Below are positions 11,727-64,000 of a DNA stretch of 64,000 nt, piece after piece. Under the pieces are notes generated by a model that saw only the letters and a program-made list of their open reading frames with translations, did no database searches and was not told the origin of the DNA. Every line of letters begins with the position of its first letter. Position 1 is the first letter of the stretch. Where the stretch lies: positions 18,290,001-18,354,000 of the forward strand of contig NC_073407.1 in the NCBI RefSeq assembly GCF_028641065.1, given 5' to 3'. This stretch comes from Leucoraja erinacea (taxonomy: Eukaryota). Position numbers and translations under genes: made by a program.

Positions 11727-12199
11727 CCACTAATGCCATTAGAACTACACCCACCCACCATAGGTGTGACGGGAAGGGAGTCCAGCGGCAAAAAAACACA
11801 CATATGCAGGAAATCTGAGATAAAACAGTAAATACTCTGCTGGCTGGGTTGCATCTGTGGAGAGAGAAACGATGTGTAGCGTTTCAGAGCGATGACCTTT
11901 TATCAGAACTAAAAAAATGTGGGAAATAAGGAATTTCATGCACCAACAGCTGAACAATTAAGTTCTTACTTGCAGCAGCAGTTGCAGGCTTATAAACGCC
12001 ATATCCACAGATAATATACGATAACACAATATTACAATTAATAACCCCAATATTAGATTTAAAAATCCCGAAGTCCTTACTGCAACCACAGACCATAATA
12101 GCAAAGATCTTATAGCGTACTGTTCTGTGTTCTAAAAGGCTCGGTGACTGTATCCGGTAGAGTTTGTTTACTGTGAGCTCCTGGCAAGGAAAAGATGTG

Positions 12200-26590: not shown

Positions 26591-27408
26591 TCTGAAACAC
26601 GGTGGTGGGAGTGTTATGGCCTGGGTATGTATGGCTGCTGAAGGTACTGGCTCACTTTTCTTCATTGATGATACAACTGATGATGGTAGTAGTGTAGCGG
26701 CCCATAGTGGTGACCTTGTTAATATCGAACCCTCGCGATTGGCTGGCGCGGTCACATGAGCGTGGGAGCTTCCTTGCGGATTTTTTCTGTAACCGTTCAT
26801 TCAAGCGCCACACGAATAGAATACACATCGTTAAAATTTGGCTGTCTATCTTGACTCAGGTGACTACGTTGTTTGCGTTTCAAAATAAAGAATTTTTGCA
26901 CACCTTAACGTCTCGACTCGCCAAAGTAGAATAATGAATTCTGAAGTCTATCGACATAACCTGTCTGCTCAAGTTCAAACAAATGTCTCAAAACTCATTG
27001 GCCGGCGGTTCATTCTACAGCAACAAACTGAAGGGAACTAGCCCCCAGAACAAGGATAAGCTAAAGATGGCTGCAATACAGGCTTTGCAGAGCATCACCA
27101 GAGAAGATACCCAACAAATGGTGATGTCCATGAATCGCAGACTTCAAACAGCCACTGCATGCAAAGTATATGCAACAAAATACTAAACATTTACACAACA
27201 TTGCTGTGTCCCAAACATTTTGGTGTCCTGACATTTTGGTGAACTGACTATGTATAAGCAATGCTGTAATTTCTACATGGTGAACCCAAAATGTGTAAAA
27301 ATTGCCTTTATTAAAATGTGACAATGTGCACTTGAACCACATGTGATTTTTTTCTATTACAAATCTCAAATTGTGGAGTACAGAGGCAAATAAATAAATT
27401 ATGGGTCT
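26591..27408 (+). mobile_element. Tc1 3' half (copy A) interrupted by a solo LTR
   Basis: KHGGGSVMAWVCMAA and right-TIR sequence; 5' part deleted relative to the paralog at 39881. Confidence 0.85.
26693..26924 (+). mobile_element. Gypsy-type solo LTR with 5-bp TSD AGTAG
   Basis: Begins TGTAGCGG, contains AATAAA, flanked by AGTAG; the same LTR is followed by a PBS at 40820 and preceded by PPT and integrase at 61490. Confidence 0.85.
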
Positions 27409-28431
27409 GTAAACTAATGTATTCTTGTTTTACAGTGCACTAAATATATAATGTTCCACCACCCCAGCACCAGTTATTTTAGATCTAAATTGCTTTAGAA
27501 ATGAAATTCACAAAAAAAATCCAATTGAAAATAATCTGAGAAAATAACATGTATTTTCACATGTTGAAATTTATTTTTTTAAATAAAACCTCTTTACAGT
27601 GGAAAAAATGTAGTTAAAAATATCAGACTTTTCATGTTTTACCAAGTAACATGTATTTATTTTAATCATGAGCCTGTCACATAACTGGACACTATAACAA
27701 AGTAATAAGATTATTCTGGTATCTGTATGAAATATTTTGTATAGTAAAAGTAATTGTGAAAACAGACACTATTTGCCTTTTTAGGGAAATGTATCTATCT
27801 TAACTGGCTTTAGTTATATATAAAAAAAAAAACACTTTACATGATTTGACCTGTAAAAATGTTGACACAAAAATATCAGTAAAGGCAAAACAAGAAAATT
27901 GTTGAACAATAATCCCATGTTGGATATGCTTTTTCACGTTTGCTACGAAGGAGAAATTGAGTACCTTGTGCATGAATAGGTCATTAGTGCATTGCAAAAT
28001 AAATTAGTCTCTTCTCGTTGTTATTTCTTTAAGTGGGACGGTGGGATTAAACTTGAACATAATACATTGCTGATTTCTTAGCAGGGTTCATTCGTCAAGA
28101 ACATTTACTCAATTTTAAAATTATACAAAAAGTGTATTTTTCAAAGAAGTGCAGTGGTTCAATCTATGCAATCTGTCAAGCTATGCAATCATTTTCAACT
28201 AATTACTTCCCTACTGTATGTATGTAAACATGTGTGAAATTCTCAATCTTTAAATAGCAGCTTAAAATCACTACAGGAACAAACTGACAAATTGAGATAG
28301 ATTGAAATAGCGCGATCCCCAGGTAAATCCATCAACTGCAGCAGTCAATTACCCCATTAATTTTATTTTTTTTATTAAAAAAGTGTCCAGTGTCGAAAAG
28401 CAAAATATATTCAATTAAAAAAACACACATT

Positions 28432-28676
28432 CTACAAGTAAAAATCCACCTTGGTGGCTACGGTTTTGCAGCCTTTGTCTGAATAGATCTTTTCATTTTC
28501 TGGGAAGTATGTCATTTCATCAGCTACAGCAGTAATAATTTCCTCATCCGCCTCATAACCCCTGGCTACCAGTTCTTCCTTGACACACAACTTGACATGT
28601 TTATATTCCAGAGGAAGGAATGGGACAAAGTAGTCAATCACGTTTCTATCAATGAGGCTGGTGTGCCAGAATCCAC
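28432..28676 (-). CDS. tor1: Torsin-1 copy 1, exon 5 ([27 protein letters not shown]...[15 protein letters not shown])
   Basis: 245-nt terminal exon; sensor-II GCK motif; five exons give a 1008-nt ORF (335 aa). Confidence 0.96.
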
Positions 28677-29581
28677 CTATCCAATTAAACAAAAATACAT
28701 TAGTTTACAAAGATCACATCAGGCAAAGCGTCAAAATCATACAGCCATTCATATCTGAACTTGGGTTTTGTACCATTTCCATTTGCATCGTTTTAAAATT
28801 CTTCATTACCCTAAACACATCACAATCTACGTAATCTTGACCAAACCATAAATCCGTCAGGATCTCTGTAGATCACCAGCTGTGGACCTGCATAATCATT
28901 CCACCATTTGTTCAGCTATCAGCATCAGCAATAAGCATCTTCCAGTTCCTTCCCTTAACATCGGCCTTTAAGATGCTTCATTGACCAATCATTTGGTCAC
29001 CTGTGCTATTACCGTTTCAAACTTTTATTGGATAACAATTTTTATAGAAGTGAAGCCTTCCCAATATTTTACAAGCTTCAAGCTCCTGCTGCACTGAATT
29101 AGCCTTCAACCAAACATTGTGGAAACTTAGCAATAAATGTCTGTGCTCCTGACACTACAAGAAGAAAAGGCAATCCGCCAGTGCAGTAACCTTTGATGGG
29201 AAAACAAATAAAACTGTAGATGCTGAAATCTGAAACAAAAGCAGAGATGCTAGAAGAACTCAAGCGTTATCTGTGGAAAGATAAACCAGTCAACATTTCC
29301 AGTCAGTGATCCTTCCTCAGAACAGAACTTTCAGCACTTTGATTACCCTCAAGTAGTCAATGCTGGAAAGCACATAAATGCAAACTGCAAGCATGTCAGA
29401 ATAGAATTAGATGCATGCAGCTCCCAACATGAGCCTGTCAAACCTGTATAAGGAATGCCATAGATGTGCACTGGTAACTAGAATACTCATGGAAGTGGAA
29501 AAAGATATGAACAGATAAACAAAGGCACATTGTTGAAAAACGTCTAACATAGCCTTCATGAAATTGACAATGGATGTTTAA

Positions 29582-29858
29582 TTTAGTTTAGAGATACAGC
29601 ATGGAAACAGTCCTTTCGGTCCAGCAAGTCCATGCCAACCAACACACACCCATACACTCGTTCTATCCCACACACTAGGGACAATTTACAGAAACCAATT
29701 AACCTACAAACCCGCACCTCTTTGGAATGGGGGAGGAAACCAACACCGGTCACAGGGAGGATGTACAAACTCCATACACACAGCACCCGTAGTCAGGATC
29801 AAACCCAGGTCTCTGGCACTGGACGGCAGCAATTTTACCGCTGCGCCACTGTGCCGCC
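29582..29858 (-). mobile_element. tRNA-derived V-SINE (HE1-like); paralogs at ~49379-49652 and ~63855-64000
   Basis: Minus strand GGCGGCACAGTGGCGCAGCGGT (A box) ... GGGTTTGATCC (B box), V-core-like GGTTTCCTCCC..TCCAAAGA, (CTAAA)n tail. Confidence 0.8.
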
Positions 29859-30039
29859 ACAATGGTTGTACAGATTTCCAATTGGGGAGCATATTTTGTT
29901 CCAGTGTTCTTCATTGCACATTCCTCATTTTAAGCAAAAAAGTATATATTAATCAAATTGTACAAAGAAGCTTCCAATAATTCCAAGTTGAACCAGTGCA
30001 GCTCATTTCAAAATGCCAAAATTTAGCATACATACTTAC

Positions 30040-30167
30040 TGTTTTTGTTATTGAAGACTCCGATAGACAGTTTACTGTCAAGATCTTTCAATTGAATTTC
30101 CTCCCTTTTGCTTCCTTTGTGCCAAAAGTCCAGTGCAATCTCAGTGATCCTCTCTCCACCTGCATTG
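30040..30167 (-). CDS. tor1: Torsin-1 copy 1, exon 4 (SNAGGERITEIALDFW...VFNNKNS)
   Basis: 128-nt AG/GT exon; sensor-1 SN. Confidence 0.96.
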
Positions 30168-31717
30168 CTGTTCACAGCAAATAATAGTGATTTATAACAA
30201 ATAACCAAACACTAGCTGGCATAGGCTTAAGGTGAGAGGGGAGAGATTTATGGGGCAAAATTTTCACTCGGAATATAGTCTGTATGTGGAATAAGCTGCC
30301 AGAGGAAGCTGTAAAAGTGTAAACAATTATGGACATCTATATGGATAGGAAGGTTTCTGCGGGCTACAGGCCAAATGCAGGCCAACAAGACCAGGCCTGT
30401 ATACCAACTTTGGTCAACATAGACATGGTGGACCAAAAGGCCAGTTTCATGCTGTACAGCTCTATGACAAGTCACAAAGGGTATCCTCTGGAGCTTGCAG
30501 GCTTTAATACACCTCAACTCAACAAAACATAACTACCCCATCCTTCGCAAGAATTTCTACATCATGAGGCTCCAGAAAATTTATCATGAAATCTCTGATG
30601 GCATCTCACTGTAGTACTGATGAAGTGATGGAACAGTTAGAGATGTCTTCTTTAAAATAAAATGTTAAATATGCCCTCCAAGCTGATTGTCGAATATTCT
30701 ATTGTGTTATTTTGCAGAAGACCAGGGAAGCTCCCTCCCGTGTCTTGACCAATACAAATCCCACAATCAATTTCAGGCACAGAAATTATCTGACTAATTA
30801 TCAAATGTGTTTGTGGGAGCTGTTGTGCTCAGATCAGCTGGCCTGCTTCCTATGGGCAGCACAGTGGCATAGATATGAGTGCTCCTGCTTCAGCGCCAGT
30901 GGCCCAAGTTCAAATTTGATTGGGTGCTGACTGTGTGGAGCTTACATTCTTTCCTGTGACAACAAGTTTCTTACTGGGGTCTCAAATTTTCTCTCACATC
31001 CCCAAAAAGTGCTGTGTGGTTGGTTAATTAGCCTTGCGTGGGGTTGGGTGGTAGAACCTGGAGGGAATTAATGAGAGTGGAGATGAATAGGGAAAATTAG
31101 TGGGGGGGGGGGGGGGGTGGTACTGTTCTGACTGGTCATAGGTTTGATAGGTTGAAATAAACTCCTTCCATTAGGAAATATGGAAATGACCACTTCGGAG
31201 GTATTTCATGGACTTTATAGTATTCTGGTCAGTATTATATAACAAGATATTACATGAATGCAAGTTAATTCTTATTCTTTAAGAATGCTTGTTTGGTGTT
31301 AAGGGGTTATGGGAAGAAGGCAGGAGAATGGGATTGAGAGGCAAAGATAGATCAGCCATGATTGAATGGCAGAGTAGACTTGATGGGCTGAATGGCCTAA
31401 TTCTGCTCCTCAAATTAATAAACAAACAAATAATTTGAACATCATGTAAAATGGCATGCTTCAGTTGTTGCTCAGCTCTTAGACCACTGCTTGCTTTGTT
31501 GTCTGTTGTTCTACAATGACTGATCATGCATTACATTTATTCCCTCCATCATAATTTCAATACCATTTACAATATATTACAAAGCCTTCAGTAAATGTGC
31601 AATTATTGTCAATAAAATAATGTACCCAATTCATTTCTATTTCAAATTCAGTATTTTTATTCCTTAAAGTTAATGATAGACTTTGTTCATGTGATTCACT
31701 ATAAATATATATTTTAC

Positions 31718-31893
31718 CTCAGAAAAATGAAAATCGCCTTCCGGTACACCACTCCATCAATGTTATCATAGTACTCCAAATAAGGCTTAATGGCATCAAT
31801 AAGGCCTGCTTGCATCTTGTCCATTTCATCAAAAATGAACATGGACCTGTCACACGTGGACACATTACCACGGATCCATTTCTGCAGCTGCTC
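31718..31893 (-). CDS. tor1: Torsin-1 copy 1, exon 3 ([27 protein letters not shown]...KAIFIFLS)
   Basis: 176-nt AG/GT exon; Walker B FIFDEMDK. Confidence 0.96.
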
Positions 31894-33758
31894 CTAAGGA
31901 TAGACATTTATTTTGTATGAAATATATTCACAGAAGCAACAACTCTTCACCCCACCACCACAAATCCCCAAACACACCTATTCTCAACACAAACACAGCA
32001 TCACTGAGATGATTATATATTATCCCCAAGTCAGGGTTGATGATATTACAGGACTTTGCCTCGTTATGGCAAGAACAAAAATCACTATAAATAAATGGTT
32101 GGCTGCTGAAGACGAGTAAATTTGACACTTGATATGCACGTATTGTTATGTAGCTGTCTGGTGAAGCAAGACATTTAAGTACAGAAGAGGCTTAGTTTGG
32201 TCGATTCTGCCTTTCACCACATAATAGAAAAACAAATATTATCTCCACTTGAATCACCAACTCTCACATATAGAATGTCTCAAATACATGTTTATACTTA
32301 TTACTACCAAACATTTGGATATTGCTGCTTCTTATAAGGATCTCTGTTGTCGTTGATGCCATTTCCATGAAGAGACTAAAGAACAATTTATTCCATAAAT
32401 CCTTTAGCTGTGGGGCAACCATTTTTAAGGATGTAAATACAGTATCAAGGCGTATCCAGTAAATTAATATGCACTCAAGTCAATAAACTTCACATGAATT
32501 ACATATTTAAGCAGAAGTACTCTGCAATGTAACCAGAATCATTATTTGGAGGGCAAATGGTCTGATTTGATGTGATACCCATTCCCAATTTTCTTTCCTA
32601 CATCTGCCGAGGTCCATCTCCAAAGCACCGTGCCAGTTCCAATAGCTCTCAGAATGTACCTACATTACATGTGTAGCAGGTTATTCTCCGATACCAGTCA
32701 GGCATCAGAAATGAGTCTGATCATCAAACATGGCCAATTTATCAGTATATGAAGCTTATCTGTCCTGCCCAACTTGAAGGCACCAATCTGCATTATTGCT
32801 TCTCCCAATGTAAGGGTGGGTGGCCTCAATGTGTTATGATTTTTTTTTAAATGAAAGAACTTTTATTTTCATCAATGCTACATTTATTGCTTGTAGTAAA
32901 ATTGGCTCATTTTCTAGCACTGTGATATTCCCTCGTGAATGATTTTCAATAATTGCCTTACATCTAGCATAAGGAAAGTCTTGTTAAGTGTTGGCACTAT
33001 AACGTTTTATGATTAAGTCCCATCAATTGACCAAAACAAAATTGATAACATATTTGTCAATTCCTCAATGAGTATGCTACCAAGTTATCTGCATTGAGTA
33101 TTTAGTGCTCAGCGTTCAGTTGGGTGGGATATCCTAGGCAGCCTCGTTTGTTTTATCTTCTGTAATCTTATGACCACCCAGCTAATCACTCCAAGTCACT
33201 TTTGGGGGCATTTTTTTCCCAATGTACGATTACAATTGCTTTGTTTGAGAACAATCCTCTCAAATGTCGTCGGACTTTTATACTACGTTAAAAAGGCACA
33301 TTATAATGAAGCTGTTGTGATGACATGCAGGAGAAGATTAGAAGCAAATAATCAGTATTGTTTTAATTTATATAATGAAACATTAAATACAAAGAACTGA
33401 TTTCCATGCACCACTTTAATCGCAAGGTTTGGAGGTTGTTTAACTATTTATATTTTTTCTTATGCATTCACCAAAAGTGATTACAATTAGATTAAAACCA
33501 TAACTCACTTGGTGATCCATTATTTTATAAAGAAACTTTTTAAACTGCATGATTAAAACACAGCATTCACCATGCACCAAATTTCTATCATTTCATTCAT
33601 AATCCTTCTGAAAACTTAATTAAAATGCATAACTCACTGCTGATATCCAATACTCTCTATGCTACCCCTCATGTTTTGATTTTTTAACTACGAGGAGCAT
33701 TGCCCCACACAAAATATCCCATCTAGCAATTTAAAATGTACCCATACTCTGATGTTAC

Positions 33759-34024
33759 CTTATAGTGGCTGAGATATTCAGGGTGAGGGAAGTGCAAAGT
33801 GGAGATAAACTGATGAACATATGCACTCTGCAGTCCATTTGTGTAAATGTTCTCAGCTAGTATTTTACTAATTAGGTTTTTGCCGGTCCCGGTCCAGCCA
33901 TGTAGAGACAAAGCTAGAGGTTTTTTAGGGTTTGGATTTGTGAAGAAACCATTAACAGCCTTCAAAACAACTTGCTTGGCAATATGTTGTCCAAATAGTT
34001 TGTTATCCAAGTCCATCTTCAAAC
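33759..34024 (-). CDS. tor1: Torsin-1 copy 1, exon 2 (LFGQHIA...HGWTGTGKN...HFPH)
   Basis: 266-nt AG/GT exon; torsin-type Walker A GWTGTGKN. Confidence 0.97.
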
Positions 34025-36221
34025 CTGGTTATGGAAATAAAAGGTTCAGATTATCACACAAAGAACAAAATTACTTAGAATGCAGAGTTTAACTGTTACA
34101 CACACGTTTCACATTTTTAGTGCATAGCTGAAGGGATGTTAAACATTTGGAGATATTGCCTCTTCATCAGTACATAAAGCGGAGGCACTTTGCTTTCTAA
34201 TGTGGACATCACAGATCCCAAAGCATAAGGAAAGGGGGAATTATCCCTTGTGTCCTGGCCAATGCCTACCCTTAAGCAATGATCGAGTTATGATGCTCTT
34301 TGGTGCACACTTACTCTACACCAATTGGCTGGCATATGAAGCAGGTTTATAATAGAGGCTATACTTCATTGGTTGATGAACCACTTTGAGATAGCCCAAG
34401 GATAATTTTCCAGCGATTCAATGCTTAAAAATGAAAGCACCATTTTAATGTGAAGTGCATTGTACTGAGTACAGTACATTAAAAAAGCAATCAATACCCC
34501 GCCCCATAAGAGTGAAAATGTCTAATTTCTGACCTCGGACTGTTTCTGTACTCAGTTACACATCTGCCAATCCTTAACAACGTCTTAAATTTGCTTCTTT
34601 TCCTACCCTGCAAATGTTTTTGACATTCCTAACGACATAAAGACCGCCTACTTCCATCTTTGTTTCATCATCTGTCCTACTTCATCTAATATCCTTAGAA
34701 AAACCTCATTCATTTACTTGTGTCACTCCAGATTCCAGTCCAGGCAAGTCCTGGCAAGTCTTCTATCCCCATATCTGGAATCTTCAATGCAGGCAGATTC
34801 CTGCTGCTGGGGTTTGACAGGAATCAGTGTTCACCCTTCATGATTTATATTACAAATTAGATTAAGAGACTGTATGAAGCTAAAACAAAATATGCGGGTA
34901 AAGAATAGAACAACATGTTGATTGGTTTAGATGGTTTAGAAGTTTATTGATAATACTGATAGAGGTGGATGTTTCAATGTAAAAAGGAGTTCAAAATCAT
35001 GATAGATATGGACAAATGACATGACTTGGAAGCAGGGGGCAAAGGGAATTCATTCCCTTTGATAGGAGATATAAAAACAAGCATTTTAAACATTGAGATT
35101 GGTAAATTGTGATGTACAGTGTAATCTTGACACACTGGTTCATTTAAATGTGTAAACAAATGTAAATAAGTGAGTACCAGCAATTGGGAAAGTAAATGAT
35201 TTGAACATCTTAATTGCAGAGTTTTTAGTATTAGTTTTAGAGATACAGCATATTTTGGTCCACCAAGTCCATGTTGACCATCAATCACCTGAACACTAAT
35301 TTTATGTTACCCCACTTTTGCATCCTACACTATAGGGGCAATTTACGGAAGCCAATTAACCTACAAACCGGCACGTCTTTCGAATGTGGGAAGAAACCCA
35401 AGCACCCGGAGAAAACCAATGCAGTCGCAGGGTGAACACGCAAACTCCATACAGACAACAACCAGATGGTGTGGAAGTACAATCTCATTTTAGAATGACT
35501 GATAACTAGAACCACCGTCTCAGACAAATAAATGAGGATCACAGCCAGAACGTAGCAATTGGACAGGCGCATGGATTTGCAGGGAATGGAGGGATATGGG
35601 TTACATGCAGGTAGAGATTAATTTTAGCCCAGCATCAATGTTCAGCACCGATATTGTGGGCTGCAGGGCCTGTTCTTGTGCTGTATTGTTCAGATTCAGA
35701 TTCAGATTCAATTTTAATTGTCATTGTCAGTGTACAGTACAGAGACAACGAAATGCATTTACAACGAAATTGTAAATTTCGTGTGTTCTATGTTCTGTGA
35801 GTGTTGGAGGTCAGGAGAGACTAATAAACGTATATCAATTTATGAGAGGCTTCCTGTGGTGTACTGTTTTATCTATTTATTACATTATTATAGAAACAAT
35901 ACTATTTCAATGACCACATTTCACTCTCCATCCATCAAAAGAGACAAATAAAGTTAAGATTAAAAAAACAATTGCTTCTCCCTATTATTTAGGGCCAAGT
36001 TATTACTGGTTTATTGCTGGATTTGTATCCAAATCTGAATTTGCATTGTAATTCCCATCAGCAAATATGTGTTGTGCATTGTACATTGTCACAACTACCC
36101 TGGGGAGAGCAGACGTGTTGCAAGGTGGCCTGTGCAATCTGCATGCAAAAGTCCTGTGGATGCAGTACAAATAAATAGCCGGTGTATGTTAACGTGGCGG
36201 TGAGATGTCACGACCATTTAC

Positions 36222-36414
36222 CTGTCAGGTTGAGTTTCACCCACTCGTCCTCACAACACTCCTGGAACTTGCAGTACAGTTTGGGGAAGGTGGTGAAGAG
36301 GCCGGTCAGAGCGGTGGCCACGCCGACTGCGATGCCCATACTGATGGGCTCCATGGCCGCCACAAAAGGGGTGGACAAGAGCACGAGCAGCACAGCCCGG
36401 ACCATCACCTTCAT
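36222..36414 (-). CDS. tor1: Torsin-1 copy 1, exon 1 (signal peptide, hydrophobic domain, YCKFQECC)
   Basis: ATG at 36414, donor G|GTAAAT; MKVMVRAVLLVLLSTPFVAA-MEPISMGIAVGVATALTGLF. Confidence 0.93.
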
Positions 36415-36782
36415 GTTGTCGGTTTCCTGGCGGCCGCCCCCTAACAGGCGACGAGGCACAAGACCCCGCCTCAACGCAGCGGCCAGCGAGCCCTGACAAC
36501 CCAGCGGAAGAGCATGCGTCGTCACATCCGCCCCCTCTGACCTTTCCCCTTCCCCGCCCGAAACCCTCAGCCAGACATGTTTGTGAGGGGCATCCACACA
36601 GGCAGGAACAATGATCTTATAGCGGAGCAAGATGGTCTGCTCCTACGTAAAACACGTAGTACGGTCATGCGCAGATTCATGGGCGATTATAGGACCCATT
36701 TTAGCAACCAGCCTCCGGCAAAGATCAGATCTTTGTTTCCGCCTCCGCTCTCGTATCTTCACTTTGGTCTTTGACTTTGACC

Positions 36783-37042
36783 ATGCCGTCCATATCTACC
36801 AGTGTTGCCTAGTGTTGCCTACTGCTCTGCGGTGAATTGTTCCAATCGCCAATGTAGGCGACCCGACTTGTCTTTCTTCAGTGTTTAAGAAGGAACTGCA
36901 GATGCTGGAAAATCGAAGGTACACAAAAAAGCTGGAGAAACTCAGCGGGTGCAGCAGCATCTATGGAGCGAAGGAAATAGGCAACGTTTCGGGCTGAAAC
37001 CCTTCTTCAGACTCTCTTCAGGTTCCTCGTTAAGGAGGAAAG
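36783..37042 (+). pseudogene. Disrupted THAP-domain first exon of the P-like transposase
   Basis: Removing a 10-bp tandem duplication (36811-36820) and a repeat insertion (36882-37014, TSD TCTTCAG) gives MPSISTSVAYCSAVNCSNRQCRRPDLSFFRFLVKEER followed by GTAAG; fits the THAP CxAxxCxN...SFFRF pattern. Confidence 0.75.
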
Positions 37043-37836
37043 GTAAGAAAAGACAAATAAATCGCAATAAAAGCGAAAAGATGCCTATGTTCCTTCCACA
37101 GCGTGGGGGGGAGCCTGGCCCGGATCAGCACCAGAGATCTTTGATCAGCACGGCCAAGACACCAGAGTGAAGTTGCGGGGAGGTTTACAATGTTTATTAT
37201 TTAATGTCCCTTCTCTAGTCTGAAATAAAGATCATCATTGGATATAAAAATCAGAAGAAATATAATTGTTTAAGAAGGATCTGCAGATGCTGGAAAATCG
37301 AAGGTACACAAAAAAGCTGGAGAAACTCAGCGGGTGCAGCAGCATCTATGGAGCGAAGGGAAAAGGCAACGTTTCGGGCCGAAACCCTTCTTCAGAAATA
37401 TAATTTCAGAAACCCTTATATTCAGAAATATAATTGTGTGTGTTATATGATTATATACACCTATATCACATTCATGTATGTGTGTTCTTTCCAGCACAAT
37501 CTGGTCAGTTGTATGCTCATGGAATAAAACCATCCTTAAGTTATACATCTTTTGTAAATCTTGCTCAAAACAAATTTAATTTTGTGAAATTCTTCAATTA
37601 GATAACCCCACCATTACAGGCAGATCTCATTCCACTCTCTGGGTATTGGGAAGATCAGACCCCATTTTATTTGTGGAGAAACAACTCCATAGAAAATAAG
37701 CACAAAAACATTCAGTAACATTCCAGGGCTAGAGCAACTGGAATCTTCATATTGCTATTATTTCCCCAAATACTGCAATTGTGAACAGTGTGATTACATT
37801 AGTGTGATTAGATGAATGAATTACAGAGTGCAAGTG

Positions 37837-38284
37837 TAATACAAAATCAACTCAAACACAGCAGATGAGCCATTTAAAAAGAAATGATTTAAAAAACATT
37901 AAAAAAAAAAGAAATTTACCAGAGTCAAAATTTATAAACATTTTATTCTTTAACAAGAATTAACAGAATTATAAACTAACAGAATTATGAATCTAACCCT
38001 ATATCACGCACAAAAACTGTTCCCCCGCAACGTTGATTACCCTGCGAGTCGGGTAGGGTAGGTTCCGGTTAATACAAAATCAACACAAACACAGCTTATG
38101 AGCCATTTAAAAAGAAATGATTTAAAAAACATTAAAAAAGACAATTACCAGTCAAATTTTATTCTTGACAAGAATTAACAGAATTATGAACTAACAGAAT
38201 TATGAATCTAACCCTATATCACACACAAACTGCTCCCCCACAACGTTGATTACACTGCGAGTCGGGTCGGGTAGGTTCCGGTTA
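37837..38284 (+). repeat. Tandem duplication of ~215-230 bp inside the P-like element
   Basis: 37837-38069 and 38070-38284 both run TAATACAAAATCAAC...GGGTAGGTTCCGGTT. Confidence 0.85.
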
Positions 38285-38410
38285 CTAAAATGGGTGGGGA
38301 AAAATGCCCAGGATCCGCTCCGTAACGTACTACACGTCAGCCCATTGCATTTCGCAGAAGTGGCCTATCTTGCTCCGCTATAAGATCTTTGGGCAGGAAC
38401 AAAGATTATA

Positions 38411-38873
38411 GTGATGTTTCACGGCAGTCGGGTCACAACCCGTGCTGTTGCTACGCTACGCCAAGTGGAGTACACGCGATGAACTGCAGGTAAGCACTTA
38501 CCATTGTTTCCAGCGTAGCGGGCCCGTTAAAACCCGCCGAAATTGTCAATTTTTGCGCTGTAAATAATTATGGAAATCGGGATAAGCGTGAGAGACATTT
38601 AGCCTACTTCAGAATTCCAAAAGTGAGGAGGAATGATGGTAGATAGAAGCGAGAGCTGAAGGGACAACAACAGCCAGAGTGTCTCACGCTTACCCCGACT
38701 TCCACAATTTTTTACAGCGCAAAAATTCAACATTTTGGCGGTTTTTAACAGGTAGGAAAGTACGCGTTTCTTGCATTAATAACATATACCGGAAGTTACT
38801 GATGTCCTCCAGATGGATTGAGCGACTCCGTGCGTCAAGCCCTATGACCCAGTGACCTTACGTGCACGCCCCC
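38411..38873. mobile_element. Foldback MITE (internally deleted relative of 56145-57160) inserted at TATA
   Basis: Shares CACGGCAGTCGGGTCAC start and GACCCAGTG...CGTGCA end with 56145-57160; TATA on both sides. Confidence 0.8.
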
Positions 38874-38939
38874 TATAGAGCAGAGCCTGCAATAGTAAGA
38901 GATTTGCAAGACTATCTCAAGAAGTATTAAAGGTGAAGT

Positions 38940-45890: not shown

Positions 45891-46050
45891 TATACAGGTT
45901 TGACAGGCTCATGTTGGGAGCTGCATGCATCTAATTCTATTCTGACATGCTTGCTGTTTGCATTTATGTGCTTTTTATTTGATTTGATTTTTTTTTTTTA
46001 ATTGTCCAGTGTCGAAAAGCAAAATATATTCAATTAAAAACACACACATT

Positions 46051-46295
46051 CTACAAGTAATAATGCACCCTGGCGGCTACGGTTTTGCAGCCTTTGTCTG
46101 GATAGATCTTTTCATGTTCTGGAAAGTATGTCATTTCATCAGCTACAGCAGTAATAATTTTCTCATCCGCCTGATAACCCCTGGCTACCAGTTCTTCCTT
46201 GACACACAACTTGACATGTTTATATTCCAGAGGAAGTAAAGGGACAAAGTAGTCAATCACATTACAATCAATGAGGCTGGTGTGCCAGAATCCAC
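46051..46295 (-). CDS. tor1: Torsin-1 copy 2, exon 5 (...[17 protein letters not shown])
   Basis: 245-nt terminal exon, open frame; five exons give a 981-nt ORF (326 aa). Confidence 0.9.
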
Positions 46296-46365
46296 CTATC
46301 CAATTAAACAAAAGTACATTAGTATACAAAGATCACATCAGGCAAAGCGTCAAAATTATACAGCC

Positions 46366-48631
46366 CAAGGCTGCCAACATTGGGTGAGAGTTGGGAGTGA
46401 GAAATTGTGAGAGACCAAGCCCGAGGGAGCATAGCGACGGGGGGTGGGGGTGGGGAGTGGGCGGAGGGTGTCCCTCTCCCATTGGTACGGAACATTTGCA
46501 TTTTTCAGCTTGAAATTGTGCAATATGGTGCATACTGTAGTGAGTCTTTTAACTTACACTTGAATGCAATATATGCTTTAAATTGGATTGGAGCGTTTTT
46601 GAAAGGGGGGAGGCTGTGTGATCACTGGCCTTGGGGGAACCCGGTGAGGGAATGGAGCAACCGAGTGTGGAGAGGGTGTGGAAGAAGAGTGTCCCTCCTC
46701 CCAGGGTAGGAACTTGTTGGAATTTGATGTATTAAAATCATGTTTTAGTGCACTGTAGAAGTATGATTTCAATGTTTTTTGTATGAAGTATTTTTAAGAG
46801 GTAACTTTTTAAGGGGTAACTTTATCCACACAAAGGGTGATGGGTGTATGGAACAAGCTGCCAGAGGAGGTAGTTGATGCAAAGACCATCCCAACATTTA
46901 AGAAAAAGTTAGACTGATACATAGATAGGACAGGTTTGGAGGTATAGACCAAAAGCAGGTAGCGTAGCTGGGAGCGTAGGCGGGTGTGGGCAAGTTGCGC
47001 CGAAGGGCCTGTTTTCACACTGTATCACTCTATGACTACATTATACCTCCACCATGCATGAATGTTTCAAAATCAAGTGATTGAGTTTTATTGCCATGTA
47101 CTCAAGCATAAAAACATAGAAAATAGGTGCAGGAATAGGCCATCGGCCCTTCGAGCCAGCACTGCCATTCAATATGATCATGGCTATTCATCTAAAATCA
47201 GTACCTCTTTCCTGTTTTTCCCCCATATCCCTTGATGTCATTAACCCCAAGAACTAAATATATCCCTCTCTTGAAAACATCCAATTGGCCAGCACTGCCT
47301 TCTGTGGCAGAGAATTCCACAGATTCACAACCCTCTGCGTGAAGTTTGTTCTCATCTCAGTCCTAACTGCCCCCCCTTTATTCTTAAACTGTGACCCATG
47401 GTTCTGAACACCACCAACATCGGGAACATTTTTCCTGCAGTTACAGTAAGTGAAAATCTAGTAGGCAAGCAGGATGCTTTCACCAACCACCCCCATTTGA
47501 AGTCCACTATCTTCCACCGTATCTACCCAGTGCATGGTACTTACTTCCAGCAGCCACTGGTTGTCCTCCAGGATGCACCGAGCCACAGCCTGATTCATGC
47601 CGAATCACACCTGGCTGAATTCGGCAGAGACTCTCACGGCAGCGGTGCAACGCTTCGACGCCTCCGACGGCCCGGGACTCTTGCACTGAGGCTGCTCCAT
47701 GGCCGGAGCTGCAGTGAGCAACTCCCCAGCCCAGCAAACACTCACCAGCCCCGCTCCCCGTCTGCATCTGTCCCCGCCCCTGCTTCTGCTTCCAACACCC
47801 GTGGCCCATGCAGTTGATATGAGTGTTGAAATATTCGTTGATCACAGAATTTCTCACAACAGAGCGAGAGAAATTGGTGAAATGCTTGATTCTCACGCCC
47901 AATGCATGGGAGTTGGCAGCCCTGCCTCTCTATCCCCTTCTCCCTCACCCCCTCTCTCCCTCCCCTCTCTCTCCCTCCCACCTCACTCATCCCTCTCTCT
48001 CCTCTCACGTCTCTCACTTCGCCCCTCTCCTCCTCTCTCTTCCCCATTTCTCCCTCCCACCTCATTCTCCCCCTGGCTCTCTCCCCCCTCTATCTTTTTC
48101 CTCTGTCTCTATCTCCTCTTTCTCTTTGCCCCCCCATCTCTCTTTCCCCCTCTCTCTTTTACCACCCCTATCTCTTCCCCCCTCTCCCATTCTCTGCTAT
48201 CCTCTCACCCCTCTCTCTCTCTCCCCCCCCTCTCTCCCCCCCCCCCCCCTCTCTCCCCTCCCCTCTCCCTCTTCTCTCTCTCCATTCATCCCCCCTCTGT
48301 CACTCCCTTCTCTCTCCTCTCACCCCCTCTCTCTCTCCCTCCCGTCTCCTTCCCCTCTCTCTCTCTCCACCTCCCTTTGAGAGTCTGTCCCTTTGGCACA
48401 GAGACTCTCGCGGCAGCGGCGCAACGCTTCAGACGCCTCCGACGACCCGGGACGTGCGCTGCTCCATGAACTGCAACTAGCGACTCACCAGCCCTGCAAA
48501 CACTCGACAGCCCCGCACACACTCGCAGCCCCGCAAACACTCACCACAGAGCGTGAGAAATTTCTGATCAGCGTGAGAGTTTGCTTGAGGGCGTGATTCT
48601 CACGCTCAAAGCGTGAGAATTGGCAGCCCTG
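46366..48631. mobile_element. Non-autonomous TIR transposon with 5-bp TSD CAGCC (possibly hAT5-like), carrying nested LINE fragments and a CT-rich tract
   Basis: TIR CAAGGCTGCCAA / TTGGCAGCCCTG; CAGCC at 46361-46365 and 48632-48636; empty site in copy 1 (ATACAGCCATTC near 28742). Confidence 0.85.
47925..48378 (+). repeat. C/T-rich low-complexity polypyrimidine tract
   Basis: About 450 bp almost entirely C and T; explains the spurious Pro/Ser/Leu ORFs. Confidence 0.95.
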
Positions 48632-49816
48632 CAGCCATTCATATCTGAGCTCCGGTTATGTACCAATTCAATTTGCATGGTTTTAAAATTCTTCATTGCA
48701 CTAAACACATCACAATCTACGTAGTCTTGACCAAACCATAAATCCGTCAGGATCTCTAAAGATCATCAGCTCTGGTCTTGCATAATCAATCCACCATTTG
48801 TTCAGCTACCAGCATCCTCTAGTTCCTTCCCTTAACCTCTGCCTTTAAGATGCTTCATTGACCAATCATTTGGTCACCTGTGCTATTACCTGTGCTATTA
48901 CCACGGAATTAGCCTTCAACCAAACCTTGTTGAAACTTAGCAATAAATGTCTGTGCTCCTGAGACTAGAAGAAGAAAAGGCAATCCGCCAGTGCAGTTAC
49001 CTTAGATGGAAAACAAATACATCTGTAGATGTTGAAATCTGAAGCAGAGATGCTAGTAGAACTCAAGCACTATCTGTGGAAAGATAAATCAGTCAACATT
49101 TCCAGTCAGTGATCCTTCCTCAGAAGAACTTTCAGCACTTTGATTACCCTCAAGTAGTCAATACTGGAAAGCACATAAATGCAAACAGCAAGCATGTCAG
49201 AATAGAATTAGATGCATGCAGCTCCCAACATGAGCCTGTCAAACCTGTATAAGGAATGCCATAGATGTGCACTGGTAACTAGAATACTCATGGAAGTGGA
49301 AAAAGATATGAACAGATAAACAAAGGCACAATGTCCAAAAACGTCTAACATAGCCTTCATGAAATTGACAAGGATGTTTAGTTTAGTTTAGAGATACAGC
49401 ATGGAAACAGTCCTTTCGGCCCAGCCAGTCCACGTCGACCAACGCTCACCCATACACCAGTTCTATCCCACGCACCAGGGACAATTTACAGAAACCAATT
49501 AACCTACAAACCCGCACCTCTTTGGAATGGGGGAGGAAACCAACACCGTCACAGGGAGGATGTACAAACTCCATACACACAGCACCCGTAGTCAGGACCC
49601 AGGTCTCTGGCACTGGACGGCAGCAATTTTACTGCTGCGCCACTGTGCCGCCACAATGGTTGTACAGATTTCCAATTGGTGAGCATATTTTGTTCCAGTG
49701 TTCTTCATTGCACATTCCTCATGTTAAGCAAAAAAAGTATATATTAATCAAATTGTACAAAGAAGATTCCAAGTGCAGCTCATTTCAAACTGCCAAAATT
49801 TAGCATACATACTTAC

Positions 49817-49944
49817 TGTCTTTGTTATTGAAGACCCCGATAGACAGTTTACTTTCAAGATCTTTCAATTGAATTTCCTCCCTTTTGATTCCTCTGCGCC
49901 AAAAGTCCAGTGCAATCTCAGTAATCCTCGCTCCACCTGCCTGG
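49817..49944 (-). CDS. tor1: Torsin-1 copy 2, exon 4 (SQAGGARITEIALDFWRRG...VFNNKDS)
   Basis: 128-nt AG/GT exon, open; sensor-1 N to Q. Confidence 0.9.
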
Positions 49945-51466
49945 CTATTCACAACAAACAATAGTGATTTATAACAAAGAACCAAACACTAGTTGGCATA
50001 GGCTTAAGATGAGAGGGGAGAGATTTATGGGGAAAATTTTTCACTTGGAGTATAGTCTGTGTCTGGGATTAGCTGCCAGAGGAAGCTGTAGAAGTGTAAA
50101 CAATGATGCCTTTTAAAAGACATTTGGACATCTATATGGATAGGAAGGTTTCTGCGGGCTACAGGCCAAATGCAGGCCAACAGGACCAGGCCTGTATACC
50201 AACTTTGGTCAACTAGACATGGTGGACCAAAAGGCCAGTTTCATGCTGTACAGCTCTATGACGTCACAAAGGGTATCATCTGGAGCTTACAGGCTTTAAT
50301 ACACCTCAACTCAACAAAACATAACTACCCCATCCTTCTAAAGCATTTCTCCATCATGAGGCTCCAGAGAATTTATCATGAAATCTCTGATGGCATCTCA
50401 CTGTAGTACTGATGAAGTGATGGAACAGTTGGAGATGTCTTCTTTAAAATAAAATGTTAAATATGTCCTCCAAGCTGATTGTCGAATATTTGATTGTGTT
50501 ATTTTGCAGAAGACCAGGGAAGCTCCCTCCCGTGTCCTGACCAATACAAATCCCACAATCAATTTCAGGCACAGAAATTATCTGACTAATTATCAAATGT
50601 GTTTGTGGGAGCTGTTGTGCTCAGATCAGCTGGCCTGCTTCCTATGGGCAGCACAGTGGCATAGATATGAGTGCTCCTGCTTCAGCGCCAGCTGCCCAAG
50701 TTCAAATTTGATTGGGTGCTGACTGTGTGGAGCTTACATTCTTTCCTGTGACAAAGAGGGTCTCAAATATTCTCTCACATCCCAAAAATGTGCGGCATGG
50801 TTGGTTAATTAGCCTTGCGTGGGGTTGGTGGTAGAACCTGGAGGGAATTAATGAGAGTGTAGGTGAATAGGGAAAATTAGTGGGGAGGGAAATGGGACAA
50901 TTAGGAAATATGGAAATTACCACTTCCAAGTTATTTCATGGACTGTATAGTATTCTGGTCAGTATTTTATAACATGATATTACATGAATGCAAGTTAATT
51001 CTTATTCTTTAAGAATGCTTGTTTGGTGTTCAGGGGTTATGGGAAGAAGGCAGGAGAATGGGGTTGAGAGGGAAAGATAGATCAGCCATGATTGAATGGC
51101 AGAGTAGACTTAATGGGCTGAATGGCCTAATTCTGCTCCTAGAACTTATGAACAAACACAAATATAGGTCTTGAGGTTTAATTTGAACATCTTGTAACAT
51201 GGCATGCTTCAGTTGTTGCTCAGCTCTTAGACCACTGCTTGCTTTGCTGTCTGTTGTTCTACAATGACTGATCCTGCATTACAGTTATTCCCTCCATTAT
51301 AATTTCAATAGCATTTACAATATATTACAAAGCCTTCAGTAAATGTGCAATAATTGTCAAGAAAATAATGTACCCAATTACATTTCTATTTCAAATTCAG
51401 TATTTTTATTCCTTAAAGTTGATGATAGACTTTGTTCATGTGATTCACTATAAATATATCTTTTAC

Positions 51467-51642
51467 CTCAGAAAAATGAAAATCGCCTTCCGGTACACCA
51501 CTCCATCAATGTTATCATAGTGCTCCAAATAAGGCTTAATGGCATCAATAAGGCCTGTTTGCATCTTGTCCATTTCATCAAAAATGAACATGGACCTGGC
51601 ACACGTGGACACATTACCACGGATCCATTTCTGCAGCTGCTC
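51467..51642 (-). CDS. tor1: Torsin-1 copy 2, exon 3 (Walker [10 protein letters not shown] intact)
   Basis: 176-nt AG/GT exon, open. Confidence 0.9.
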
Positions 51643-53385
51643 CTAAGGATAGACATTTATTTTGTATGAAATATATTCACAGAAGCAACAACTCTTCACT
51701 CCACCACCACAAATCCCCAAACACACCTATTCTCAACACAAACACTGTTTCATACGGCATCACTGAGATGATTATATATTATCCCCAAGTCAGGGTTGAT
51801 TGATATTACAGGACTTTGCCTCATTGTGTCAAGAACAAAAGTCACTATAAATAATTGGTTGGCTGCTGAAGACGAGTAAACTTGACACTTGATATGCACG
51901 TATTGTTATGTAGCTGTCTGGTGAAGCAAGACATTTAAGTACAGAAGAGGGTTAGTTTTGTCGATTCTGCCTGTTTCACCCCATAAGAGAATTTTTTTAA
52001 ATCTCTACTTGAATCACCCACTCCCACATATAGAATGTCTCAAATACATGTTTAATCTTATTACTACCAAACTTTTGGATATTGCTGCTTCTTATAAGGA
52101 CCTCTGTTGTCGTTGATGCCATTTCCATGAAGAGACTAAGCAATTTATTCCACAAATCCTTTAGCTGTGGGGCAACCATTTTTCAGGATGTAAATACAGT
52201 ATCAAGGCGAATCCAGTAAATTAATATGCACTCACGTCAATAAACTTCACATGAATTACAAATTTAAGCAGAAGTACTCTGCGATGTAACCAGAATCATT
52301 ATTTGGATGGCAAATGGTCTGATTTAATGTGCCACCCATTCACAATTTTCTTTCCTACATCTGCCAAGGTCCATCTCCAAAGCATCGTACCAGTTCCAAT
52401 AGCTCTCAGAATGTACCTACATTACATGTGTAACAGGTTATTCTCCCTGATACTAGTCAGGCATCAGAAATGAGTCTGATCATCAAACATAGCCAATTTA
52501 TCAGTATATGAAGCTTATCTATCCTGCCTAACTCAAAGGCACCAATCTGGATTATTGCTTCTCCCAATGTAAGGGTGGGTGGCCTCAATGTGTTATGAAA
52601 TTTAAAAAATGAAATAACTTTTATTTTCATCAATGCTACAATTATTGCTTGTAATAAAATTGACCAAAACAAAATTGATGACATATTTGTCAATTCCTCA
52701 ATGAGTATGCTACCAAGTTATCTGCACTGAGTATTTAGAGCTCAACGTTCAGTTGGGTGGGATATCCTAGGCAGCCTCGTTTGTTTTATCTTCTGTAATC
52801 TTATGACCACCCAGCTAATCACACCAAGTCACTTTTGGGGGCATTTTTTCCCAATGTATGATTACAATTGCTTTGTTTGAGAACACTCCTCTCAAATGCC
52901 TTTGGACTTTTATATTACGTTAAAAAGGCACATTACAATGAAGCTATTGCGATGACATGCAGGAGAAAATTTGAAGCAAATAATCAGTATTGTTTTAATT
53001 TATGTAATGAAACATTAAATACAAAGAACTGATTTTCATGCGTCACTTTAAGCTCAATGTTTGGAGGTTGTTTAACTACTTATATTTTTATGCATTCACC
53101 AAAAGTCTACAATTAGATTAAAACCATAATTCACTTGGAGATCCATTATTTTATAAATAAACTTTTTAAACTGCATGATTAAAACACAGCATTCACCATG
53201 CACCAAATTTCCATAATTTCATTTATAATCCTTCTGAACACCTTAATTAAAATGCATAACTCACTGCTAATATCCAATACTCTCTATGCTACCCTTCACG
53301 TTTTGATTCTTTAACTGCGAGGAGCATTGCCCCACACAAAATATCCCATCAAGCAATTTAAAATGTATCCATACTCTGATGTTAC

Positions 53386-57689: not shown

Positions 57690-58892
57690 GTTGTCGGTTT
57701 CCTGGCGGCCGCCCCCTAACAGGCGACGAGGCACAAGACCCCGCCTCAACGCAGCGGCCAGCGAGCCCTGACAACCCAGCGGAAGAGCAGGCAGCGTCAC
57801 ATCCGCCCCTCTGACCTTCCTCCCCCCCAACCCTCAGACAGACATGTTTGTGAGGGGCATCCACACAGGCAGGAATATGGTGCTGACAACAGTCAACTTG
57901 TCCCTCACACTCACTATCACTCTTTGTCTCATTTTCTGGAGAGTTGGAACTGTTCAGTAAATCCAGCAGCATTTGTGACGAGAAGGGAAAAAAATGAATA
58001 AGTTTTGGAACGAATACAATTAAGATTATAGAACCCCATCTAATCCAATCAACATATTATTCTATTCCCTACTCACCTATTTATTTTTTGTTTCTTTTTA
58101 CGTGAATCTACTAATAATATGACAATTTTCTGGATGAGTAAACTGTTATCTTCGATCTTTTCCCCATAGTTTTAGACACATCCATATTTGTCCTCCTTGC
58201 AGAATTTATTTCTGGGGGGAGTCTCCAAATATCCAAATATACAAGGGCGGAAGATTCTTCTAAGTTTTGATTTGTGCTCAGAACCGTAAAGCCTTGACAG
58301 AGCTTGATGATTCAGGCACACGTCAAACGCAGGACAATTTTTTTGGACTTGAAATAAGATCTCTGAAGAAAAAAAATTCAGAGGATGCACAAAGTCCTCA
58401 AAAGCATTTCAATACTCATGTTTTTGGCAAAATCTGTAATTATAAATATAAAACCTGTTATATATTATAAAACACTGGGCAGCGGGTTCAATGATTTTCA
58501 AAAATGAATTGATTTAAGTATTTGATGCAAAAGATGACTGAGGTCTGTGAAGGAAAAGTGTGTGGAAGAAACTGAAAAGAGAGATATTACAAGAGACATC
58601 ATGAACACGATGGAATAAAAACAAGGCGCAACTCGGTAACATGATGGAATACTCCCTACTGGCCTTAAATCAGTGCAGCTCTTAATACCATCCATTACTA
58701 AATACTAATTTCCTCACTACCTGTATGTCCTATCTATACAATGCACAGCACTTGATTTGGCTGCTCCACTAACATTTTGGTGCAGAAGAGGTTTACCACA
58801 ATTTTGCTTGCATTATAGAGGGTATTAGCTATAAGGTTGGACAAACTTGGATTATTTTCTCTGTAATGTAAGAGTTTGAAGGGGAACCTGAC

Positions 58893-62313: not shown

Positions 62314-64000
62314 ATAAACTAATGTATTCTTGTTTTACAGCGCACTGTAAATATATAATGTTCCACCACCCCAGCACCAGTCATTTTAGATTAAATTACT
62401 TTAGAAATGCAATTCACAAAACAAATCCAATTGAAAAGAATCTGATAAAATAACATGTATTTTCACATGGTGACATTTAAAAAAATAAAATAAAACCTTT
62501 ATACAGTGGAAAAAATAAAGCTAAAAATATCAGACTTTTCATGTTTTACCAAGTAACATGTGTTTATTTTAATCATGAGCCTGTCACATAAGGGACACTA
62601 TAACAAAGATTATTCTAGTATCTGTATGAAATATTTTGTATAGTAAAAGTAATTGCTAAAACAGACACTATTTGCCTTCTTAGGAAACGTATCCATCTTA
62701 ACTGGCTTTAGTTAAAAACAAATATATCCACTTTACATGATTTGACCTGTAAAAATGTTGACACAAAAATATCAGTACAAAACAAGAAAATTGTTGAACA
62801 AAAAGTCCATGTTGGATATGCTTTTTCACATTTGCTACAAAGGAGAAATTGAGTACCTTGTGCATGAATGGATTGTTGTGTGCATTGCAACATAAATTAG
62901 TTTCTTCTCGTTGTCATTTCTTTAAGTGGGACGGTGGGATTAAACTTGAACATAATATAGTGCTGATTTCTTTGCATGGTTCCTTCGTCAAGAGCATTTA
63001 CTCAATTTTAAATGGCCAAAAAAATTTATTTTCAAAGAAGTGCAGTGGCTCAATCTATGCAACCTGTCAAGCTATGCAATCATTTTCAACTAATTACTTC
63101 CCTACTGTATGTATGTAAACATGTGTGAAATTCTCAATCTTTAAATAGCAGCTTAAAATCACTACAGGAACAAACTGGCAAATTGAGATAGATTCAAATA
63201 GCGCAATCCCCAGGTAAATCCATCAACTGCAGCAATCAATTATCCCATTCTTTTTTTTATTATTAAAAAAGTGTCCAGTGTCAAAAAGCAAAATATATTC
63301 AATTTAAAAAACACACACATTCTACAAGTAAAAATCCACCTTGGTGGCTACGGTTTTGCAGCCTTTGACTGAATAGATCTTTTCATTTTCTGGAAAGTGT
63401 AATTTAATCAGCTCTGCTATAGGATCTTTGCCTGAGACTACAAGAAGAAAAGGCAATCCGCCAGTGTTGTAACCTTTGATGGAAAACAAATAAAACTGTA
63501 GATGCTGAAATCTGAAACAAAAGCAGAGATGCTAGAAGAACTCAAGCATTATCTGTGGAAAGATAAACCAGTCAACATTTCCAGTCAGTGATCCTTCCTC
63601 AGAAGAACTTTCAGCACTTTGATTACCCTCAAGTAGTCAATACTGGAAAGCACATAAATGCAAACTGCAAGCATGTCAGAATAGAATTGGATGCATGCAG
63701 CTCCCAAACCTGTCAAACCTGTCAAACCTGTATAAGGAATGCCATAGATGTGCACTGGTAACTAGAATACTCATGGAAAAATATATGAACAGATAAACAA
63801 AGGCACAAAGTCCAAAAACGTCTAGAATAGCCTTCATGAAATTGACAAGGATGTTTAGTTTAGTTTAGAAATACAGCATGGAAACAGTCCTTTTGGCCCA
63901 GCCAGTCCACGCCGACCAACGCTCACCCATACACCAGTTCTATCCCACACACTAGGAACAATTTACAGAAACCAATTAACCTACAAGCCTGCACCTCTTT
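62314..64000 (-). pseudogene. tor1: Torsin-1 copy 3: 3' UTR, truncated exon 5 (63322-63413) and intron 4, running off the window
   Basis: Colinear with 27410-28525, then with 29148 onward; acceptor and 5' part of exon 5 are deleted. Confidence 0.88.

What the first reader, a model, noticed from the sequence alone, without database searches (positions are those of the whole stretch)
37124..37151. Excision footprint: 12-bp fused TIR tips between 8-bp direct repeats
Seen: ATCAGCAC-CAGAGATCTTTG-ATCAGCAC. The core is the TIR start CA(A/G)AGATCT joined to the TIR end AGATCTTTG through the palindromic AGATCT. Established: P excision leaves TIR-derived 3' overhangs on the donor site that are joined by microhomology. 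Inference: a second element of this family inserted here and later excised by a P-type staggered cut, which would be evidence of real cut-and-paste activity.
Basis: partly seen in the sequence, partly recalled or inferred. Interest (0 to 1): 0.72.

Follow-up and report, generated by a model that had tools for sequence, protein, structure and literature searches.

The report
P-transposon excision scar in skate DNA
This 28-base motif is most likely the scar left when a P-family jumping gene cut itself out of a sister copy in a skate-like genome; the scar type is well known from flies, and here it hints that a vertebrate P lineage cut its ends the same way.

Summary
The 28-mer is present as described and is beyond chance. 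It is the only one of 404 short 8-bp direct repeats in the window whose spacer begins and ends with TIR tips. It lies in intron 1 of a broken 1,783-bp element (36609-38391) with 25-bp TIRs, an 8-bp TSD, an empty site in a paralog, and a THAP exon whose relatives lead to P transposases. One contig from another organism crosses the site without the core. The longest possible microhomology join between two 17-nt TIR tails predicts a 12-bp core; the observed core differs from it at one base. Two further solo tips of 16 and 17-20 nt occur in the window, one at a 622-bp deletion. Best reading: a sister P element inserted here, was excised, and its tails were joined by microhomology (0.75). A transposase-independent deletion between the TIR palindromes gives the same scar and is not excluded (0.14). 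This is a known footprint type in a P family not found in my searches, and it records past activity only.

The parts
37124..37131 (.). left copy of the 8-bp target-site duplication ATCAGCAC of the lost element
37132..37143 (.). 12-bp core: two TIR tips fused through the TIR's own palindrome (6 nt as it stands, 8 nt for a canonical tip); one mismatch at 37134
37144..37151 (.). right copy of the 8-bp target-site duplication
36609..38391 (+). host: internally deleted, non-autonomous P-superfamily element, 1,783 bp
   Evidence: no exon-2 relic by tblastn
36601..36608 (.). host left TSD GGCAGGAA
   Evidence: single copy in the paralog
36609..36633 (+). host left TIR (25 bp, one mismatch to the right TIR at 36612)
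38367..38391 (-). host right TIR
38392..38399 (.). host right TSD GGCAGGAA
36783..37042 (+). transposase exon 1 (N-terminal part of the THAP domain), broken by a 10-bp duplication near 36801 and by a 140-bp repeat insertion; GT donor at 37043-37044, so the footprint is in intron 1
   Evidence: (tables 4, 5)
36875..37014 (.). secondary insertion of a high-copy short repeat into the THAP exon; contigs of X6, X11 and X17 skip it
   Evidence: table 5 (joint 36874 to 37015)
36719..36735 (.). 17-bp near-palindrome of two TIR tips (8+9 nt) in the 5' region; shared by other family copies; either an old fixed scar or an internal motif
57868..57875 (.). empty host target site (single GGCAGGAA) in the paralogous repeat unit
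63414..63430 (-). solo 17-nt TIR tip (15 of 17 matches; 3 more bases fit both TIR and flank) standing where the paralog has 622 bp (28526-29147): one-sided scar with flanking deletion
12102..12117 (+). solo exact 16-nt TIR tip; no partner and no TSD seen

Best explanation
A second element with the same TIR tip as the host inserted into intron 1 of the host P element and duplicated ATCAGCAC. It was later cut out by a P-type transposase with a long staggered cut, leaving single-stranded TIR tails on both donor ends. The two tails have the same sequence and could anneal only through the TIR's own palindrome at positions 3-10. End joining at that microhomology left TSD + 12-bp core + TSD, and the G at 37134 is a variant tip or a later substitution. 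Shown: the motif, the host anatomy, the P affinity of the THAP exon, and a family contig lacking the core. Inferred: that a whole element once stood here, that a transposase removed it, the tail length, and the repair pathway.
For: (1) The motif is far beyond chance. (2) The host has 25-bp TIRs, an 8-bp TSD and an empty paralogous site. (3) The THAP fragment's best hits are skate proteins (P0001 Amblyraja radiata, 83% over 24 aa) and P0004 (Priapulus caudatus, 83% over 23 aa), which carries THAP plus the P-transposase HTH PF12017. P0004's longer relatives P0010, P0011 and P0013 carry the RNase H halves and the GTP-binding insertion; skate P0007 shares the stretch leading into the HTH. (4) In run X17 (organism C) the one contig crossing the site, depth 28.5, lacks 11 of the 14 letters 37132-37145. 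The letters kept read G,G,C,C,A, which is the sequence after the second TSD copy. (5) In X1 and X6 (organism A) contigs cover the core without these gaps, so it is not only in the window's assembly. (6) Among all joins of two 17-nt tails the longest microhomology is 8 nt and gives a 12-bp product; the next is 4 nt. (7) Tips of 17 nt with at most 2 mismatches occur 4 times in the window (two host ends, 12102, 63430) against 0.007 per simulation in 300 simulations. One of them replaces 622 bp of the paralog. (8) Both junction classes, two-sided and one-sided with flank deletion, are in Drosophila P repair data (PMC2895639 Table 1).
Against: No filled site (whole element at this position) was seen. 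The empty state rests on one contig whose alignment shows 11 letters missing in four gaps, not one clean 20-bp skip. No 20-bp joint is among the 15 of 86 joints shown, and the tool warned that some joints were not counted for X6, X11 and X17. X1 may be related to the window's own source, so it is not independent. The core has one mismatch to the predicted product, and G at TIR position 3 is not seen in either host TIR. The P assignment runs through a chain of homologues from a 24-residue fragment that has no Pfam hit itself; no DNA record joins these TIRs to a full transposase. For zebrafish THAP9, larger deletions of flanking donor DNA were reported after excision (10.1101/2024.03.22.586318), so clean tip retention is not guaranteed in vertebrate P relatives.
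Confidence: 0.75

Rival explanations
1. A sister element did insert here, but it was lost without transposase. The palindrome at TIR positions 3-10 also forms a direct repeat at the two ends of any copy. Slippage across the TIR stem, or repair of a chance break, could delete everything between the two palindromes and leave the same 12 bp.
For: The product is identical to that of the best explanation. Transposase-independent 'nearly precise excision' between inverted repeats is known for bacterial transposons (recalled, no call).
Against: It does not explain the solo tips of 16 and 17-20 nt, close to the 17-nt P cut, one at a flank deletion. Those are separate events, so they bear on this site only indirectly.
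Confidence: 0.14
2. No element ever stood here. A local repair event duplicated 8-9 bp and copied the core from the host's own 5' motif at 36719-36735, which shares GATCAG and the last 10 letters of the core apart from a 2-base slip.
For: The internal motif lies about 400 bp away and is a family trait. Real DNA here has four times more short direct repeats than the simulations (404 against 96).
Against: It needs an exact 8-bp duplication, the family's TSD length, with both insert ends falling exactly on the TIR termini (CA...TG). The TIR-tip model needs one substitution.
Confidence: 0.05
3. The 28-mer is part of the family consensus (an old fixed scar or an internal binding motif), or it is chance.
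For: The same host carries a 17-bp tip-like palindrome that is family-wide. The evidence for the empty state is thin.
Against: The X17 contig crosses the site without the core. Chance expectation is about 0.0009 for the exact form and at most a few in a hundred for the loose form.
Confidence: 0.04
4. The family is a THAP-bearing hAT element (8-bp TSD; databases name some hits after the hAT-like P52rIPK protein), and the core is a miniature deletion derivative.
For: 8-bp TSD. The source names of P0004 and P0006 are '52 kDa repressor ... -like'.
Against: P0004 and its longer relatives carry P-transposase domains and no hAT domain. hAT excision leaves hairpins on the flanks, not TIR tips (recalled).
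Confidence: 0.02

Closest known systems
Drosophila melanogaster P element donor-site end-joining products (PMC2895639 Table 1; passages read)
   Same: Both 8-bp TSD copies kept, TIR tips fused through microhomology; one-sided products with deletions past the TSD also occur.
   Different: Natural and fixed in a vertebrate genome, with a different TIR. The join uses an 8-nt palindrome inside the TIR; the fly tip-to-tip joins seen use 1-3 nt, and its 5-8 nt joins leave only one short tip between the TSD letters.
Zebrafish Pdre2/THAP9 (10.1101/2024.03.22.586318; passages read)
   Same: Vertebrate P-superfamily element, 8-bp TSD, TIR starting CA, THAP transposase, many internally deleted copies.
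   Different: Pdre2 has a 13-bp TIR of unrelated sequence. The passages read report larger flank deletions after zfTHAP9 excision and cite the 17-nt cut only for the fly enzyme.
Galileo and 1360, P superfamily with 7-bp TSD (PMC3698922; passages read)
   Same: P superfamily. The tip fusions with the same 16-nt tip in L005, L025, L031 and L082 have flanks that fit 7 bp better than 8 bp.
   Different: The skate host and the footprint have 8-bp TSDs.
Priapulus caudatus THAP + P-HTH protein P0004 and unnamed full P transposases P0011, P0013
   Same: 70-71% identity to the skate THAP proteins; P0011 and P0013 are 83-87% identical to P0004 over the HTH region.
   Different: Their DNA ends were not obtained, so shared TIRs are not shown.

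Membership tests
P superfamily (host element) | TIRs beginning CA | tested here: met
   25-bp TIRs at 36609-36633 and 38367-38391
P superfamily (host element) | 7-8 bp target-site duplication | tested here: met
   GGCAGGAA on both sides, single in the paralog
P superfamily (host element) | N-terminal THAP domain | tested here: met
   The fragment has no Pfam hit alone but aligns at 78-83% to proteins with PF05485
P superfamily (host element) | HTH, RNase H and GTP-binding insertion in the transposase | tested here: inconclusive
   Absent from this deleted copy; present in homologues reached through P0004
P-type excision footprint | both TSD copies kept, with TIR-derived sequence from both ends between them | tested here: met
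P-type excision footprint | retained tips no longer than the staggered cut (17 nt in flies), joined by microhomology | tested here: met
   9-10 nt per side; the longest possible microhomology predicts 12 bp
P-type excision footprint | empty pre-insertion state exists | tested here: inconclusive
   One X17 contig lacks the core, but its alignment is gapped in four pieces
P-type excision footprint | filled donor state exists, or excision is shown to depend on transposase | not testable with these tools
   No genome held; single read-laying run used
hAT with THAP domain | hAT transposase domains in the family's protein | tested here: not met
   No hAT Pfam family in P0001-P0005, P0006, P0007, P0009, P0010, P0011 or P0013

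The most novel reading that the evidence does not exclude
Skates carry a P lineage, shared with distant marine invertebrates by horizontal transfer, whose TIR-internal palindrome channels donor repair into one stereotyped 12-bp scar. Its scars genome-wide are a fossil read-out of the cleavage geometry. The tips of 17-20 nt in this window, and of up to about 24 nt in another organism with the same tip, would then mean a staggered cut as long as or longer than the 17 nt known from flies, not reported for a vertebrate P transposase in the papers I read.
Probability: 0.2. Interest if true: 0.62.

Novelty: new member of a known kind. Interest (0 to 1): 0.37.

Why it matters
Excision is normally invisible in genomes, but P elements leave TIR tips behind. 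The 17-nt staggered cut is described for the fly enzyme; the vertebrate papers I read in part do not measure it. If these scars are transposase products, a skate assembly holds a countable record of the cut length and of the repair pathway in a vertebrate germline, and a simple pattern search would read it. A single footprint is otherwise an expected by-product of an old transposon.

Tried and rejected
No genome is held, so the genome-wide pattern search was not run. In one search, run X11 has no cover over the core while both flanks are covered. Summed depth falls from 804 (X6) and 737 (X17) at 37114 to 22.8 and 28.5 at 37132. The tool states that missing cover and summed depth are not copy numbers, so I do not count these as evidence. 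4 of 24 listed runs were laid. The full 25-nt TIR gave 0 matches in metagenome contigs. Paired tips in viral contigs: 0. Related loci for P0006 and P0011 in viral and prokaryotic contigs: none confirmed. The THAP fragment and the putative torsin first exon have no Pfam hit. P0002 is a repetitive chance hit and was dropped. The 12-nt tip at 58354-58365 is within chance. The 7-nt tip at 38400-38406 is left open, because the flank beyond it is a diverged repeat. Earlier findings of the scan: nothing. Paper searches for the TIR letters gave two unrelated papers, seen as listings only. Searches for P elements in skates or cartilaginous fish gave no paper on this family by title and abstract start.

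Full report
Observation. Window 37124-37151 reads ATCAGCAC CAGAGATCTTTG ATCAGCAC. Of 404 exact 8-bp direct repeats with 6-60 nt spacers in the window, it is the only one whose spacer matches the first five TIR bases at both ends with at most one mismatch. 200 Markov simulations gave 0.01 per window at five bases and none at seven, though they contained only about 96 repeats each. The expectation for the exact 12-bp form over all 404 repeats is about 0.0009.

Setting. The motif sits inside a 1,783-bp element, 36609-38391, with 25-bp TIRs and the 8-bp TSD GGCAGGAA. The window holds tandem paralogous units about 20 kb apart, one of which has a Torsin exon (PF06309). The paralogous unit has a single GGCAGGAA at 57868-57875, so the host is a true insertion. 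It lies about 190 bp upstream of an ATG at 36414 on the minus strand that I take, by position, for the torsin start; that exon has no Pfam hit. Preference for promoters is described for fly P elements (PMC7776569, section 7 read). The nearest named proteins are from skates; the species of the window was not determined.

Family. The host carries a THAP exon from 36783 to a GT donor at 37043. It is broken by a 10-bp duplication and by a 140-bp repeat that other copies lack (tables 4 and 5). A skate isoform that skips the next exon breaks at the same residue (P0001 against P0006), so the footprint is in intron 1. The fragment has no Pfam hit alone. A search of 1.84 billion representatives gave 5 hits: two skate-type family proteins (P0001, P0005), a Priapulus protein P0004 with THAP and the P-transposase HTH, a short THAP protein, and one repetitive chance hit. 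P0004's longer relatives include P0010, P0011 and P0013 with RNase H and the GTP-binding insertion, and skate P0007, which runs on into the HTH lead-in. The family is therefore P superfamily by a chain of homology. No DNA record tying these TIRs to a full transposase was found, and no later exon survives in this copy.

Is the 28-mer in the consensus? No genome is held, so I laid contigs of 4 of 24 listed runs on 36560-37262. In X17 (organism C) the one contig that crosses the site lacks 11 of the 14 letters 37132-37145. The letters it keeps read G,G,C,C,A, the sequence that follows the second TSD copy. I read this as the empty site, or a small duplication of it, forced into a gapped alignment; either way it lacks the core. 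In X1 and X6 (organism A) contigs cover the core without those gaps, and X1 also holds an exact 157-bp piece of this locus. Against this: no clean 20-bp joint is among the 15 of 86 joints shown, the output was flooded by the high-copy repeat, the tool warned of uncounted joints, and no filled site was seen. Depth differences are listed under Tried and rejected only.

Mechanism. The fly P transposase cuts at the 3' end and 17 nt inside on the other strand (PMC7776569). The donor ends keep 17-nt TIR tails, and repair junctions of the form TSD, tip, microhomology, tip, TSD are tabulated, as are one-sided junctions with deletion past the TSD (PMC2895639, passages and Table 1). For this TIR, the first 17 nt contain one long palindrome, positions 3-10. 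Enumerating all joins of two such tails gives a longest microhomology of 8 nt and a 12-bp product, CAAAGATCTTTG; the next best is 4 nt. The steps from insertion to repair are inferred, not shown.

Independent scars. Tips of 17 nt with at most two mismatches occur four times in the window against 0.007 per simulation. Two are the host's ends. One is an exact 16-nt solo tip at 12102-12117. The other, 63414-63430, is exactly the 17 bases that stand between two paralogous blocks, where the paralog has 622 bp. Three further bases fit both TIR and flank, so the tip is 17-20 nt. This fits a one-sided P excision with flank deletion. Among 120 metagenome loci holding the 16-nt tip, 5 are 30-51 bp tip-to-tip fusions in DNA whose longest stop-free frame is 77-155 codons. 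Four come from one assembly. Four have flanks that fit a 7-bp duplication at 4-6 of 7; L027 has none. They may be footprints or tiny elements; some arms exceed 17 nt.

Rivals. The same palindrome is a direct repeat at the two ends of any copy, so a transposase-independent deletion gives the same 12 bp (0.14). Templated copying from the host's 5' motif at 36719-36735 (0.05), consensus or chance (0.04) and a hAT identity (0.02) are weaker.

Comparison and novelty. It works like a fly P donor-site scar and meets the sequence-level tests; dependence on transposase is untested. The zebrafish THAP9 preprint (passages) cites the 17-nt cut only for the fly enzyme and reports larger flank deletions. 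The human THAP9 paper PMC8230255 has no occurrence of 'staggered', 'overhang' or 'footprint' in its main text (passages). I did not see the supplementary figures of excision products in either paper, and they may show retained tips. An earlier human THAP9 study is recalled only. PMC3698922 and 10.1101/158386 were read as passages. Searches for the TIR letters and for P elements in cartilaginous fish found no description of this family (listings only), but Repbase, Dfam and subscription journals were not searchable.

Verdict. A real footprint of a known kind in a P family of a skate-like genome, recording past activity. Interest 0.37. Its value lies in the cheap genome-wide census it suggests.

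Noticed in passing
window 63414-63430: 17-nt TIR tip of a variant type standing in place of 622 bp of the paralog (28526-29147), inside a torsin repeat unit; looks like an imprecise P excision that deleted flanking DNA.
   Followed up: yes
window 12102-12117: Exact 16-nt solo TIR tip with no partner or TSD and no paralog in the window to compare.
   Followed up: partly
window 38400-38406: Seven TIR-start letters directly after the host's right TSD, where the flank stops matching the paralog. Possibly the remnant of a second element inserted in tandem and excised with a deletion (P dimers separated by the TSD are described in 10.1101/158386); may also be a diverged repeat.
   Followed up: partly
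window 36719-36735: 17-bp near-palindrome of two TIR tips in the 5' region, shared by other family copies (also visible in the translation of skate P0001 and P0006). Two low-depth contigs have a different sequence there. Either an old fixed self-insertion scar or an internal motif.
   Followed up: partly
L005 2357-2407, L025 1964-2011, L027 454-483, L031 2804-2851, L082 280-316: 30-51 bp tip-to-tip fusions with the same 16-nt TIR tip in another organism. L005 and L082 are the same locus in two assemblies with different cores (51 and 37 bp); L031 is a 24+24 near-perfect palindrome.
   Followed up: partly
P0004 versus P0005, P0006, P0007: A priapulid THAP/P protein is 66-71% identical to skate proteins, high for that distance; possible horizontal transfer, no tree built.
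   Followed up: no
P0007, P0009: Little skate gene models fuse this family's THAP exons to other domains (a B-box protein among them); could be exonisation or annotation artefact.
   Followed up: no
window about 27000-38000, 46000-58000, 62000-64000: Tandem cluster of at least three torsin-like gene units at about 85-93% identity; the host element sits just upstream of one of them.
   Followed up: partly
window 38407-38877 and 56142-57164: A TA-flanked element with inverted ends, present at different sites in two paralogous units; the site near 35830 is empty.
   Followed up: partly
window 12911-13247, 56467-56674, 60226-60957: Long inverted-repeat (foldback) elements.
   Followed up: no
window 14014-14160: Assembly gap of 147 N.
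   Followed up: no
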